Positions 2,721-5,307 of a DNA stretch of 64,000 nucleotides are shown here, in pieces. The stretch comes from Escherichia coli O157:H7 (GTDB lineage: Bacteria; Pseudomonadota; Gammaproteobacteria; Enterobacterales; Enterobacteriaceae): assembly GCF_013167455.1 (NCBI RefSeq), contig NZ_CP038328.1; one strand, given 5' to 3'. Under the pieces are notes generated by a model. It saw only the letters and a program-made list of their open reading frames with translations. It had not been told where the DNA came from and did not search any database. A program made the position numbers and the translations under genes. The first letter of the stretch is position 1; every line of letters begins with the position of its first letter.

Positions 2721-3074
2721 TTAACTACAAGTGTTCTTACTGTCTACGGAACAATTTTGTCTGGCCAGGTTGCGGACAATCACCTGAACCTTTTCCTGTT
2801 CGCATCGCCAGGCCTGCTCAATAATTTTCGCGGCCCATGATGGAATATGCGGTGATAAGCGGTAATGAACCCACTTACCCTGCTTGCGATCCAGCAACAA
2901 ACCGCTTTCACGAAGAAGCGCCAGATGGCGGGAGATCTTGGGCTGCGACTGGTCGAGAGCAGTGCAGAGATCACAGACGCATAACTCTCCCAGCTCGCTG
3001 AGCAGTAAAACGATGCCCAGACGGGTTTCATCGGCAAGAATTTTGAACAGTTGGATGGGTAACAGAAATGACAT
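2721..3074 (-). CDS. arsR: Arsenical-resistance operon repressor, ArsR/SmtB family
   Basis: 117 aa; metal-binding ELCVCDLC motif inside a winged HTH; first gene of arsRBC. Confidence 0.95.
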
Positions 3075-3225
3075 ATTGCGCTCCTGATTGTTGCAGGTAG
3101 TGTCTCTCTTCGAAGCGGATAAGTCAAAAACATATATGGTTTAACGAATGTGTATGTGCAGAGGAAGGTAATAGGTGTGAATTAAGCGTTGGCTATTCAT
3201 TTGAAAGGAGGTCTGAATCAGGACG

Positions 3226-3312
3226 TAAAAAAACCGACTTTGCGTCGGTTTTTTACTTTCCAGCCCAGAGTTGGTGGCTCTGGCTGGAGTGAGAATGCCC
3301 ACATCTAACGGT
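3226..3312 (-). ncRNA. agrA/agrB-like antisense sRNA, copy nearer arsR (boundaries approximate)
   Basis: About 110 bp unit repeated at 3219-3330 and 3457-3570. Minus-strand promoter TTGCAA-17 nt-TAGTAT at about 3320-3350. Ends in hairpin aaaaaaaccgac-tttgc-gtcggttttttt at 3226-3254, which gives a U-run on the minus-strand transcript. Sequence ggctggagtgagaatgcc is near-identical to a segment of the dinQ leader. Confidence 0.6.
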
Positions 3313-3463
3313 TCAATACTATTAGCCAGTGGCTAACATTGCAAGCGTTAGCGATTTCTTCAGCTGGAGAAGGGACAGTTTGCTATACATGTTGGTGAAA
3401 GAGGATTTATATACTTTCATCGGGTCGCTGCCGTACCAGGCTTTGTCCGAATCCGGATGTAAA

Positions 3464-3543
3464 AAAACCGACTTCGCGTCGGTTTTTTTACTCTTCAGCC
3501 CTGAGTTGGTGGCTCTGGCTGGAGTGAGAATGCCATCATCTAA
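3464..3543 (-). ncRNA. agrA/agrB-like antisense sRNA, copy nearer dinQ (boundaries approximate)
   Basis: Second copy of the same unit. Minus-strand TTGCAA-17 nt-TAGTAT promoter at about 3551-3579. Terminator hairpin with A/T runs at 3464-3497. Confidence 0.6.
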
Positions 3544-3608
3544 CGCATCAATACTAATACCATACTGAAACTATTGCAAGGACATGCTGGTTTTATAACC
3601 TGAATATA

Positions 3609-3624
3609 CTGTATGATTATCCAG
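3609..3624 (+). promoter_or_regulatory. LexA (SOS) box overlapping a -10-like TATACT, upstream of dinQ
   Basis: ctgtatgattatccag fits CTGT-N8-ACAG with one mismatch; TATACT at 3604-3609. Confidence 0.7.
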
Positions 3625-3817
3625 TTAGCTCTGAGGCATTTTCACTCTGGCAATGCGCATAAACGCTTTCAAAGTCCTGTTCAGTGGTACGGGTGGTGCC
3701 GTTAACTGATGCTCTGGCCGGAGTGAGAATACCATTATCTAACAATAGGGCATGCGCCGTGACAGGCGATGGATGAGTAAGCGGATGCATTCTCACTCCA
3801 TCGTATGGAGAACACGG

Positions 3818-3901
3818 GTGATTGATAAAGCAATCATCGTTCTTGGGGCGTTAATTGCGCTGCTGGAACTGATCCGCTTTCTGCTTCAGCTTCTGAACTG
3901 A
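3818..3901 (+). CDS. dinQ: Type I toxin DinQ, 27-aa hydrophobic inner-membrane peptide
   Basis: GTG start with GGAG Shine-Dalgarno 7 nt upstream; translation VIDKAIIVLGALIALLELIRFLLQLLN, stop TGA at 3899-3901. Below the 60-aa cutoff of the ORF track. Matches the DinQ peptide as I recall it. Confidence 0.75.
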   Translation: MIDKAIIVLGALIALLELIRFLLQLLN

Positions 3902-3917
3902 TAGCGGAAACGTAATT

Positions 3918-3949
3918 AAGGGCAAAGAGCACACCACTCTTTGCCCTTT
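3918..3949 (-). terminator. Hairpin immediately downstream of gor (possible gor terminator)
   Basis: Perfect 12-bp stem aagggcaaagag / ctctttgccctt with a 7-nt loop, 6 bp past the gor stop. No strong U-run on the minus strand. Confidence 0.5.
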
Positions 3950-3954
3950 AACAT

Positions 3955-5307
3955 TTAACGCATGGTCACGAACTCTTCTGCCGCCGTTGGGTGAATGGCG
4001 ACGGTATTATCGAAGTCTTTTTTGGTTGCGCCCATCTTCAGTGCCACCGCGAAGCCCTGCAACATTTCGTCCATACCAAAACCAATGCCGTGAATACCGA
4101 CAATCTTCTCTTCTGGCCCAACGCACACCAGCTTCATGCGGCACGGCTGGCGGTGAGTGGTGACGGCGGTATACATCGCGGTGAAAGAGGATTTATACAC
4201 TTTCACCTGATCGTCGCCGTACTGCTCGCGCGCCTGCGGTTCCGTTAAACCAACAGTACCAATCGGCGGATGGCTGAAGACCACGGTCGGAATGTTGCTG
4301 TAATCCAGATGCTCATCCGGCTTGTTATTAAACAGGCGTTCAGAGAGACGGCGACCCGCTGCAACTGCCACCGGTGTCAGTTCTACTGCACCCGTGTTAT
4401 CGCCCACCGCGTAAATACCTTCAACGTTGGTGTTTTGATATTTATCGACGACGATATAGCCTTTTTCGTTGGTTTTAACGCCAGCGGCTTCGAGGTTGAT
4501 GTTGTCATTGGCAGGCTCGCGGCCAATCGCCCAAATCAGGCAATCCACCGTTTCACTGCGACCATCTTCCAGCTCCAGCGTCAGGCTACCATCGGCATTT
4601 TTCACTACCGCTTTCGGGATGGCGTTGGTGTGCAACTGCGGGCCTTCGGCGTTCATCACTTCGACCAGCGTTTCAGAGATCATCGGGTCGAAGCTGCGCA
4701 GCGGCGCATGTTTACGCACAAACAGATGCGTTTTCGCGCCGAGGCCGTTAATCACGCCAGCCAGCTCAACGGCGATGTAACCCGCGCCAACAACCGCCAC
4801 ACGCTCTGGCAAAGCAGGAAGGGCAAAGAAACCATCAGAATCAATACCGTATTCCACGCCCGGAATATCCGGGTGGCTCGGACGACCGCCGGTGGCGATC
4901 AGAATATGATCGGCTGTGATGGTTTCACCGTTAACTTCCAGCGTTTTGGCATCAACGAAGCGGGCAAAGCCTTTGATTACATCAACGTTATTTTTACCGA
5001 GCACGTTTTCATAGGAAGTATGAATACGGTCGATATAGGCGGTACGGCTGGCGATCAACGTTTCCCAGTTGAATTTATTGATAGTGGTATCAAAACCATA
5101 ATCCGGGCCGTACATATGGATCGCTTCACGGATTTGCGCCGCGTGCCACATCACTTTCTTCGGTACGCAGCCGACGTTCACGCAGGTGCCGCCCAGCTCT
5201 TTGGCTTCAATCAGCGCGCATTTCTGACCGTACATAGCCGCGCGGTTGATGGAGGCGATACCGCCGCTGCCGCCGCCGATGGCGATGTAATCATAGTGTT
5301 TAGTCAT
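3955..5307 (-). CDS. gor: Glutathione reductase (NADPH)
   Basis: 450 aa; FAD motif GGGSGG, redox-active [10 protein letters not shown] disulfide; pyridine-nucleotide disulfide oxidoreductase family. Confidence 0.95.

What the first reader, a model, noticed from the sequence alone, without database searches (positions are those of the whole stretch)
3180..3950. dinQ type I toxin with LexA box and two repeated antisense sRNA genes in the arsR-gor spacer
An about 110-bp unit occurs twice in tandem (3219-3330 and 3457-3570), each with its own minus-strand promoter and strong intrinsic terminator. A third, partial copy of the core (ctctggccggagtgagaatacc, 3706-3727) lies in the same orientation inside the leader of a 27-codon hydrophobic ORF (3818-3901) that sits behind a LexA box (3609-3624). 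The arrangement matches the published dinQ-agrA/agrB locus, where the sRNAs act in trans as antisense to the dinQ leader. The peptide is invisible to the 60-aa ORF track.
Basis: partly seen in the sequence, partly recalled or inferred. Interest (0 to 1): 0.55.

Follow-up and report, generated by a model that had tools for sequence, protein, structure and literature searches.

The report
Known dinQ toxin with AgrA/AgrB antisense RNAs
This is the already well-studied E. coli dinQ–agrA/agrB toxin–antitoxin locus, here in its O157:H7 form. The only new point is that in this strain the antisense RNA copy considered inactive in K-12 (AgrA) matches the toxin mRNA better than AgrB does.

Summary
Window 3075-3954 is the arsR-gor spacer of E. 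coli O157:H7, 100% identical to many O157 genomes. RefSeq annotates dinQ at 3818-3901. Rfam RF02891 (AgrB) hits 3225-3308(-) and 3459-3543(-) far above threshold. By synteny with K-12 these are agrB (next to arsR) and agrA (next to dinQ).

Every published element maps exactly: LexA box, +1 at 3624, +44 at 3667, leader elements 1-4, the nt 88-119 antisense target at 3711-3742, SD and GTG. The locus is therefore already known.

- The repeat unit is about 137 bp, not about 110 bp.
- The two units are separated by about 100 bp that contain a gor fragment, so they are not strictly tandem.
- The third core lies at 3712-3733, not 3706-3727.

One observation I did not find in the papers searched: a 9-nt block inside the pairing region is hypervariable across E. 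coli and co-varies between the dinQ leader and one sRNA copy.
- In K-12 that copy is AgrB (31/32 pairs).
- In O157 and roughly a third or more of genomes it is AgrA.
- O157 has the weakest best match of the haplotypes sampled (29 WC + 1 GU).

About 15% of genomes carry a repeat-mediated deletion that removes all three promoters.

The parts
3225..3308 (-). agrB sRNA gene (copy next to arsR). TSS at 3308; the 5' 32 nt (3308->3277) are antisense to the dinQ leader. Terminator hairpin about 3228-3254 plus U-tail.
   Evidence: Rfam RF02891, 107.2 bits, full length 1-84. Synteny with the K-12 agrB annotation. Fold -34.7 kcal/mol with terminator hairpin.
3316..3344 (-). agrB promoter: -35 TTGCAA (3339-3344), 17-nt spacer, -10 TAGTAT (3316-3321), 7 nt to the TSS.
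   Evidence: Read from the sequence. The paper reports consensus-like -10/-35 elements and identical TSS sequences for agrA and agrB by primer extension.
3384..3436 (-). Relic of gor coding sequence inside the agrB-agrA spacer, in the same orientation as gor.
   Evidence: Local alignment to gor 4170-4222: 43/53 identical, score 61 against shuffles of 18.7 +/- 2.3. Reads [17 protein letters not shown] versus Gor [17 protein letters not shown].
3459..3543 (-). agrA sRNA gene (copy next to dinQ). TSS at 3543; the 5' 32 nt (3543->3512) are antisense to the dinQ leader. This is the better-matched copy in this allele.
   Evidence: Rfam RF02891, 92.2 bits. Synteny with K-12 agrA. 29 WC + 1 GU + 2 mismatches, duplex -51.4 kcal/mol.
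3551..3579 (-). agrA promoter: -35 TTGCAA (3574-3579), 17-nt spacer, -10 TAGTAT (3551-3556). The -10 carries an O157-private base at 3553; the other strains read TAGCAT.
   Evidence: Sequence. Private-substitution list from 15 haplotypes.
3607..3626 (+). LexA operator TACTGTATGATTATCCAGTT (CTG-N10-CAG core 3609-3624). It overlaps the likely dinQ -10 (TATGAT, 3612-3617; inferred) and the TSS.
   Evidence: The 20-mer is identical to K-12. The published heterology index for that operator is 4.83.
3624..3951 (+). dinQ primary (+1) transcript, about 328 nt. The processing site that yields the translatable +44 form is at 3667.
   Evidence: Mapping of the published numbering: U16-C28, G88-A119, U167-U178 and A182-G187 all fall on the right bases. 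The published transcript is about 330 nt.
3639..3651 (+). Leader element 1 (U16-C28). It pairs with element 2 in the inert +1 transcript.
   Evidence: The MFE fold of the O157 +1 RNA pairs 13/13 of element 1 with element 2.
3711..3742 (+). Antisense target (G88-A119), the third copy of the repeat core. It contains element 2 (3717-3729) and the hypervariable 9-nt block (3729-3737, ATACCATTA in O157).
   Evidence: The block is variable at 8/9 positions, against 14% for the whole 5'UTR.
3790..3810 (+). Element 3 (3790-3801) and element 4 (3805-3810, containing SD GGAG at 3807-3810). Together they form the SD-sequestering hairpin. Element 3 alternatively pairs with element 2.
   Evidence: Inverted repeat 3787-3800 against the cores (I3/I4). 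Element duplex energies.
3818..3901 (+). dinQ CDS: GTG start, 27 aa, MIDKAIIVLGALIALLELIRFLLQLLN, plus stop.
   Evidence: RefSeq annotation WP_001295215.1. NCBIfam NF041472, 54 bits. The paper shows the 27-aa peptide V is the toxic product.
3918..3948 (.). Hairpin shared by convergent dinQ and gor, acting as a bidirectional terminator.
   Evidence: Inverted repeat I5. Terminator scan hit on the minus strand. Compensatory A3924:T3942 (O157) versus T:A (K-12).

Best explanation
The region is the chromosomal dinQ-agrAB type I toxin-antitoxin locus of E. coli, in its O157:H7 allele.

Mechanism (established experimentally in K-12; inferred here from exact conservation of every element):
1. LexA bound at 3607-3626 represses the dinQ promoter, and DNA damage derepresses it.
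2. The ~328-nt primary transcript (from 3624) is not translated. Element 1 (3639-3651) pairs with element 2 (3717-3729), and elements 3 and 4 (3790-3810) lock the Shine-Dalgarno sequence in a hairpin.
3. Removal of the first 43 nt (new 5' end at 3667) frees element 2 to pair with element 3. This opens the SD, and the 27-aa DinQ peptide (3818-3901) is made.
4. DinQ inserts in the inner membrane, depolarises it and lowers ATP.
5. A constitutive sRNA transcribed from the opposite strand pairs through its 5' 32 nt with leader nt 88-119 (3711-3742). This displaces element 2, lets the SD hairpin re-form and creates an RNase III substrate.

Allele-specific inference (not shown experimentally, about 0.55): in O157 the main antitoxin is the dinQ-proximal copy AgrA (3459-3543), not AgrB as in K-12. 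The pairing is weaker than in every other intact haplotype sampled.
For: Identity of the locus:
- 100% match to O157:H7 genomes with dinQ annotated at 3818-3901.
- K-12 annotates gor-dinQ-agrA-agrB-arsR in the same order, with about 91-96% identity depending on the measure.
- Rfam AgrB at 107 and 92 bits, and only these two hits in the 64 kb.
- NCBIfam toxin_DinQ at 54 bits.

Mechanism:
- The experiments are in PMC3567139 and PMC5066626.
- The published element coordinates map exactly.
- The 1:2 duplex is predicted 13/13 in the O157 +1 RNA.
- Element duplex energies are close to K-12: 1:2 -22.9 vs -21.2, 2:3 -18.9 vs -19.7, 3:4 -8.0 vs -8.1.

Allele inference:
- O157 AgrA gives 29 WC + 1 GU and -51.4 kcal/mol; AgrB gives 27 WC + 1 GU and -45.9. 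K-12 AgrB gives 31 WC and -58.2; K-12 AgrA gives -42.7.
- Cofold MFE with +44 dinQ: O157 AgrA -129.3 vs AgrB -117.2; K-12 AgrB -126.0 vs AgrA -110.5.
- In 19 intact haplotypes the target block always matches one copy much better. That copy is AgrB in 7 and AgrA in 12.
- In the plasmid homologue dqlB-agrB, a 4-nt mismatch abolishes protection and a compensatory change restores it.
Against: - There is no expression, SOS-induction, toxicity or pairing experiment for the O157 allele. All function is transferred from K-12.
- The best sRNA match in O157 (2 mismatches + 1 GU) lies between the functional K-12 AgrB and the non-functional K-12 AgrA. AgrA might therefore not repress fully.
- ViennaRNA does not recover the SHAPE-supported 2:3 and 3:4 helices even for K-12, so SD opening and closing could not be checked in silico.
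- The LexA motif is not statistically enriched on its own.
- Co-variation of the blocks could arise from gene conversion among the three repeats without selection.
Confidence: 0.93

Rival explanations
1. Same locus, with the K-12 division of labour unchanged: AgrB (3225-3308) is the antitoxin and AgrA is a degenerate, inert duplicate, as the 2013 paper proposed.
For: In K-12 only AgrB represses. The authors call agrA 'partly degenerated'. O157 AgrB has the higher Rfam score (107 vs 92 bits) and a more stable own fold.
Against: - O157 AgrB has 4 mismatches + 1 GU to the O157 target (-45.9 kcal/mol), close to the non-functional K-12 AgrA/dinQ pair (-42.7).
- Its variable block ATGCCCACA matches the target of other strains (E7, RIVM_C037166), not the O157 target.
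- A 4-nt mismatch is enough to abolish protection in the dqlB-agrB homologue.
Confidence: 0.15
2. Same locus, but in O157 neither sRNA is a tight antitoxin. Both bind partially and redundantly, and silencing relies mainly on LexA repression and the inert fold of the +1 transcript. dinQ would then be leakier than in K-12.
For: - O157 has the weakest best duplex (-51.4 kcal/mol) and the smallest gap between the two copies (5.5 kcal/mol) of all 19 intact haplotypes.
- The O157-private G->A at 3731 creates an A.C mismatch to both sRNAs and costs about 6.7 kcal/mol.
- In K-12, both agrA and agrB deletions raise full-length dinQ RNA.
Against: 29 WC + 1 GU in two 11-bp helices is still a strong duplex. 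The same G->A also weakens the activating 2:3 helix (-24.7 to -18.9 kcal/mol), which would offset leakiness. The allele is fixed in 307 genomes, although these are clonal.
Confidence: 0.25
3. The repeats and the small ORF are non-functional remnants in this strain, that is, a decaying locus.
For: About 15% of complete E. coli genomes do carry a dead, promoterless version produced by recombination between the repeats. The locus is therefore dispensable.
Against: In the window all three promoters, the LexA box, all four leader elements, the SD, the GTG and both terminators are intact. The DinQ protein is identical to K-12.
Confidence: 0.03

Closest known systems
E. coli K-12 dinQ-agrA-agrB locus (b4613, b4712, b4713; Weel-Sneve et al. 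2013, Kristiansen et al. 2016; Rfam RF02891)
   Same: Same chromosomal site (arsR-gor spacer), same gene order and orientation, and identical 27-aa DinQ. The LexA 20-mer is identical. Leader elements 1, 3 and 4 are identical, as are the sRNA TSSs and terminators.
   Different: - Six consecutive bases of the target differ (GAGTTC -> ATACCA, 3729-3734), and the matching block differs in both sRNAs.
- The best-matched sRNA is AgrA (29 WC + 1 GU) rather than AgrB (31 WC).
- The agrA -10 reads TAGTAT rather than TAGCAT.
- The terminator stem carries a compensatory pair change.
Plasmid dqlB-agrB (dinQ-like) type I TA systems, e.g. pOXA-48 (PMC12365149) and the dql family (PMC5066626)
   Same: A small hydrophobic toxin with a long structured 5'UTR, plus a divergently encoded trans-acting sRNA that pairs with about 35 nt of the leader. 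Base-pairing specificity was proven by compensatory mutations.
   Different: These are plasmid-borne addiction modules with a single sRNA. No LexA control was reported in the passages read. The window locus is chromosomal, has two sRNA copies and is SOS-regulated.
tisB-istR-1 (SOS-induced type I TA of E. coli)
   Same: The toxin gene is LexA-controlled, the primary transcript is inert and activated by 5' processing, the antitoxin sRNA is divergent and constitutive, and the toxin is a membrane-depolarising peptide. The dinQ authors note the similarity themselves; further detail is from general knowledge.
   Different: The sequences are unrelated. tisB-istR-1 has a single antitoxin sRNA that acts at a ribosome standby site rather than through the element 2/3/4 switch (general knowledge, not tested here).

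Membership tests
dinQ-agrAB type I toxin-antitoxin locus | [quoted passage not shown] | tested here: met
   arsR at 2721-3074(-) and gor at 3955-5307(-). RefSeq annotation of the identical O157 sequence. K-12 synteny.
dinQ-agrAB type I toxin-antitoxin locus | 27-aa hydrophobic DinQ peptide from a GTG start preceded by an SD | tested here: met
   GTG at 3818, GGAG at 3807-3810, 27 codons. NCBIfam NF041472 equivalog, 54 bits against a cut-off of 30. Same protein accession as most E. coli.
dinQ-agrAB type I toxin-antitoxin locus | LexA operator overlapping the dinQ promoter (SOS control) | tested here: met
   The 20-mer TACTGTATGATTATCCAGTT is identical to K-12, where HI = 4.83. LexA binding and induction are not testable here. 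The motif alone is not above chance.
dinQ-agrAB type I toxin-antitoxin locus | sRNA genes matching Rfam RF02891 (AgrB), each with its own promoter and rho-independent terminator | tested here: met
   107.2 and 92.2 bits against a gathering score of 40, both full length. TTGCAA-17-TAGTAT promoters read from the sequence. Terminator hairpins.
dinQ-agrAB type I toxin-antitoxin locus | 5' ~31 nt of an sRNA nearly fully complementary to dinQ leader nt 88-119 (30/31 for the functional AgrB in K-12) | tested here: inconclusive
   Complementarity is present but reduced: AgrA 29 WC + 1 GU of 32, AgrB 27 WC + 1 GU of 32. Whether this suffices for repression is unknown.
dinQ-agrAB type I toxin-antitoxin locus | Four leader elements allowing mutually exclusive 1:2, 2:3 and 3:4 pairings | tested here: met
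   The elements sit at the published positions. Duplex energies are similar to K-12. 1:2 is recovered in the MFE. 2:3 and 3:4 are not recovered by global folding, even for K-12.
dinQ-agrAB type I toxin-antitoxin locus | Toxicity of DinQ, membrane depolarisation, RNase III cleavage of the duplex, processing to +44 | not testable with these tools
   Known only from K-12 experiments.

The most novel reading that the evidence does not exclude
The dinQ-agr locus is not one fixed toxin/antitoxin pair plus a decayed duplicate. It appears to be a polymorphic recognition system.

- A 9-nt block in the pairing region exists in at least four classes across E. coli.
- In each intact genome sampled the dinQ leader matches one of the two sRNA copies. 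That copy is AgrB in K-12-like strains. It is AgrA in O157:H7, in the roughly one third of genomes carrying the closely related ATGCCATTA-class leader, and in the strains sampled with the TAGTCGTCA-class target.
- 'agrA is degenerate' would therefore be a K-12-specific statement.
- O157 would carry a mismatched, possibly leakier pair, together with an AgrB whose variable block matches the dinQ target of other strains rather than its own.
- The same three repeats drive frequent deletions that give one-sRNA alleles and completely promoterless alleles.
Probability: 0.5. Interest if true: 0.35.

Novelty: already known. Interest (0 to 1): 0.15.

Why it matters
As a finding it mainly confirms that the scan can recover a small, hard-to-annotate type I toxin-antitoxin locus from raw sequence. 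The agrA and agrB sRNA genes are not annotated in the O157 RefSeq record.

The allele survey adds a modest point for people working on type I TA systems and on SOS-linked persistence. Conclusions drawn from K-12 about which sRNA is the antitoxin may not transfer to O157:H7 or to many other lineages. About 15% of genomes annotated with 'dinQ' probably cannot express it.

Tried and rejected
1. Generic promoter/terminator scan. It found neither the sRNA promoters nor their terminators. This is explained by its thresholds and is not evidence against them.
2. Global MFE and partition-function folding and cofolding of +44 dinQ with AgrA/AgrB, to test SD opening and closing. The SHAPE-supported 2:3 and 3:4 helices are not recovered even for the K-12 positive control, so the approach was abandoned. 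Only the duplex and cofold energies were used.
3. One genome-contig scan with GGAGTGAGA-N9-ATCTAA, to find the locus in other species. It returned 72 loci, essentially all chance hits in unrelated phyla and none from Escherichia. The Kluyvera hit is not a dinQ locus. The pattern was too unspecific, the scan was wasted, and the ancestral state outside E. coli remains unexamined.
4. Search for homology between the rest of the agrB-agrA spacer and the dinQ body or the gor 3' end, to explain the gor relic by a simple duplication. The result was not significant (score 28 against shuffles of 21 +/- 3.6).
5. Junction-specific BLAST to count promoterless alleles exactly. It was confounded because 80% of the query also matches ordinary agr units, so only an approximate 15-18% could be derived.
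6. Literature search for earlier descriptions of O157 or allelic variation at this locus. None was found. T1TAdb only notes that it picks the more stable of two predicted asRNAs.
7. The second, weak LexA operator reported for K-12 (HI 13.82) could not be placed from the text available.
Full report
**What is in the sequence**

Window 3075-3954 lies between arsR (2721-3074, minus strand) and gor (3955-5307, minus strand). The repeat finder reports two long direct repeats, 3211-3254/3445-3488 and 3249-3324/3484-3559, at 89-91% identity and 234-235 bp apart. It also reports a 33-nt core present three times in the same orientation, at 3277-3309, 3512-3544 and 3711-3743. A degenerate version of the core finds exactly these three sites in the 64 kb and none in 100 shuffles.

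Local alignment shows that the repeated unit runs from the terminator through the -35 hexamer, about 137 bp (3211-3347 vs 3445-3582). The two units are separated by about 100 bp of unique DNA, so they are not strictly tandem. The third core string is at 3712-3733, not 3706-3727.

**Identity**

- The 881-bp region is 100% identical to many E. coli O157:H7 chromosomes and matches 5,422 of 5,426 complete E. coli genomes, always on the chromosome.
- In the identical O157 record, RefSeq annotates 'damage-inducible type I toxin DinQ' at the position of 3818-3901, but no sRNA genes.
- K-12 MG1655 annotates gor, dinQ, agrA, agrB and arsR in the same order.
- Rfam RF02891 (AgrB) matches 3225-3308(-) at 107.2 bits and 3459-3543(-) at 92.2 bits against a gathering score of 40. 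These are the only Rfam hits in the whole window.
- By synteny, the copy next to arsR is agrB and the copy next to dinQ is agrA.
- The peptide MIDKAIIVLGALIALLELIRFLLQLLN hits NCBIfam NF041472 toxin_DinQ (equivalog) at 54 bits against a cut-off of 30.

**Mapping of the published anatomy**

Using the numbering of Kristiansen et al. 2016, the antisense region G88-A119 is window 3711-3742, which puts +1 at 3624. All other landmarks then fall on the right bases:

| Published element | Window position |
|---|---|
| Element 1 (U16-C28) | 3639-3651 |
| +44 processing site | 3667 |
| Element 2 (G94-G106) | 3717-3729 |
| Element 3 (U167-U178) | 3790-3801 |
| Element 4 (A182-G187) | 3805-3810 |
| SD GGAG | 3807-3810 |
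| GTG start | 3818 |

The LexA 20-mer TACTGTATGATTATCCAGTT (3607-3626) is identical to K-12, where its heterology index is 4.83. The bare CTGT-N9-CAG motif is not enriched in the window (6 found, 5.45 expected), so the call rests on this identity.

Both sRNA genes have TTGCAA-17 nt-TAGTAT promoters 7 nt upstream of the TSS, read. Both have long terminator hairpins. The generic scanner missed them because they score 8/12 and because the T-run is inside the stem. The hairpin at 3918-3948 serves convergent dinQ and gor. It shows a compensatory A:T to T:A change between O157 and K-12.

**Mechanism**

The mechanism was shown in K-12 and is inferred here.

1. LexA represses dinQ.
2. The ~330-nt primary transcript is translationally inert.
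3. A processed +44 form is translated into the toxic 27-aa inner-membrane peptide, which depolarises the membrane and lowers ATP.
4. In the +1 RNA, elements 1:2 and 3:4 pair, and the SD is sequestered.
5. In +44, element 2 pairs with element 3 and the SD opens.
6. AgrB binding to nt 88-119 closes the SD hairpin again and triggers RNase III cleavage.

In the O157 RNA the 1:2 duplex is predicted completely (13/13). The isolated element duplex energies are close to those of K-12:

| Duplex | O157 (kcal/mol) | K-12 (kcal/mol) |
|---|---|---|
| 1:2 | -22.9 | -21.2 |
| 2:3 | -18.9 | -19.7 |
| 3:4 | -8.0 | -8.1 |

Global folding did not recover the 2:3 and 3:4 helices even for the K-12 control, so I could not test SD accessibility in silico.

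**Where the O157 allele differs**

The alignment to K-12 shows six consecutive substitutions in the target (GAGTTC to ATACCA, 3729-3734), with matching-block changes in both sRNAs.

| Strain | sRNA | Pairing with dinQ target (of 32) | Duplex energy (kcal/mol) | Cofold MFE with +44 dinQ (kcal/mol) |
|---|---|---|---|---|
| K-12 | AgrB | 31 WC | -58.2 | -126.0 |
| K-12 | AgrA | 25 WC + 4 GU | -42.7 | -110.5 |
| O157 | AgrA | 29 WC + 1 GU | -51.4 | -129.3 |
| O157 | AgrB | 27 WC + 1 GU | -45.9 | -117.2 |

Pairing and duplex values are; cofold values are. The K-12 figures agree with the published 30/31 and 25/31. The ranking is reversed in O157.

In K-12 the 25/31 AgrA neither closes the SD nor blocks translation. 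In the plasmid homologue dqlB-agrB a 4-nt mismatch abolishes protection and a compensatory change restores it. I therefore infer, with about 0.55 probability, that AgrA is the main antitoxin in O157.

**Population survey**

I fetched 19 further E. coli loci spread over the similarity ranking, in addition to the O157 reference record L001 and K-12. I then typed the cores.

The 9-nt block (3729-3737 in the leader) is variable at 8/9 positions among 15 two-copy haplotypes. This compares with 14% for the whole 5'UTR and 5% for the CDS. The block falls into four classes.

| Target block | Strains | Better-matched copy | Its duplex energy (kcal/mol) | Other copy (kcal/mol) |
|---|---|---|---|---|
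| GAGTTCTTA | K-12, HS, FDAARGOS_1371, ETEC1732 | AgrB (distal) | -58 to -66 | AgrA -41 to -52 |
| ATGCCCACA-like | E7, RIVM_C037166, AST85 | AgrB (distal) | -58 to -66 | AgrA -41 to -52 |
| ATGCCATTA | seven strains | AgrA (proximal) | -53.6 to -58.1 | AgrB -41 to -46 |
| TAGTCGTCA | four strains | AgrA (proximal) | -53.6 to -58.1 | AgrB -41 to -46 |

O157 (ATACCATTA) derives from the ATGCCATTA class. It carries a private G to A at 3731 that mismatches both sRNAs and costs about 6.7 kcal/mol. It has the weakest best duplex and the smallest gap between copies of all the haplotypes. Its AgrB block equals the target of E7-type strains, not its own.

With a 71-nt leader query, genomes fall into these bands:
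- 307 genomes carry the exact O157 allele.
- 1,921 differ by 1-3 bases. The listed hits in this band are almost all one base from the O157 leader; I take them to be the ATGCCATTA class.
- 2,093 fall in the 80-90% band that includes K-12.

[quoted passage not shown] I found no paper describing this. T1TAdb only says that it picks the more stable of two predicted asRNAs. Gene conversion among the repeats could generate matched blocks without selection, so the functional reading remains an inference.

**Structural polymorphism**

The three direct repeats also drive deletions.
- Some strains (O111 RM9322, ABW_A19, A13) have a single hybrid agr gene.
- Others (HH45, Z247) have the agr terminator fused at the core directly to the dinQ leader. 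This removes both agr promoters, the dinQ promoter, the LexA box and about the first 95 nt of the leader.

835 of 5,422 genomes cover less than 80% of the query. In addition, 9 of 60 evenly spaced rows have the 414-bp form. About 15% of complete genomes therefore probably carry this silent version, although it is still annotated as dinQ. One strain has an IS481-family insertion between agr and dinQ.

**Verdict**

The locus is an already known system, so interest is low. The allele-specific reversal of the better-matched sRNA, and the class structure of the recognition block, form a modest, testable addition.

Noticed in passing
window 3384-3436 (compare gor 4170-4222): A 53-nt relic of gor coding sequence sits between the agrB promoter and the agrA terminator, in gor orientation. 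It is 43/53 identical and reads [17 protein letters not shown] against Gor [17 protein letters not shown]. The alignment score is 61 against shuffles of 18.7 +/- 2.3. Its origin is unexplained, and flanking homology was not significant.
   Followed up: partly
window 3729-3737, 3295-3303, 3530-3538; loci L002-L021: A hypervariable 9-nt block inside the antisense core falls into four classes across E. coli. It co-varies between the dinQ leader and either AgrB or AgrA, depending on the strain.
   Followed up: yes
L008-L012 (O111 RM9322, ABW_A19, A13, HH45, Z247), aligned to window 3211-3743: Deletions mediated by the three repeats produce one-agr hybrid alleles and fully promoterless alleles in which an agr terminator is fused to the dinQ leader. 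The promoterless form is in roughly 15% of complete genomes and is still annotated as dinQ. Z247 DinQ carries L15Q.
   Followed up: partly
window 3918-3948: The terminator hairpin shared by convergent dinQ and gor has a compensatory base-pair change: A3924:T3942 in O157 versus T:A in K-12 and most other strains.
   Followed up: yes
window 3442, 3553, 3680, 3731, 3768: These five substitutions are private to O157 among 15 two-copy haplotypes. 3553 changes the agrA -10 from TAGCAT to TAGTAT. 3731 creates an A.C mismatch to both sRNAs and also weakens the element 2:3 helix (-24.7 to -18.9 kcal/mol).
   Followed up: partly
window 3617-3796 (-) and equivalents in L003, L005, L006, L015, L021: In some genomes PGAP annotates 'hypothetical protein' ORFs antisense to the dinQ leader or across the agr genes. 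These are probably spurious calls over non-coding RNA genes. In the O157 record (and the non-K-12 records fetched) agrA and agrB are not annotated.
   Followed up: no
L009-L012: In several strains arsC, not arsR, abuts the agr side of the locus, so arsR-arsB are missing there. This co-occurs with the reduced-copy agr alleles.
   Followed up: no
(plasmid records of E. coli genomes): A query spanning the agr core matched 46 places on E. coli plasmids. This is consistent with the known plasmid dinQ-like (dql/agrB) family. It was not examined further.
   Followed up: no
window 3574-3579: The agrA -35 hexamer TTGCAA is a palindrome. It lies only about 30 bp upstream of the LexA box and dinQ -10, so the agrA and dinQ promoters are back-to-back within about 70 bp (3551-3617).
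   Followed up: no
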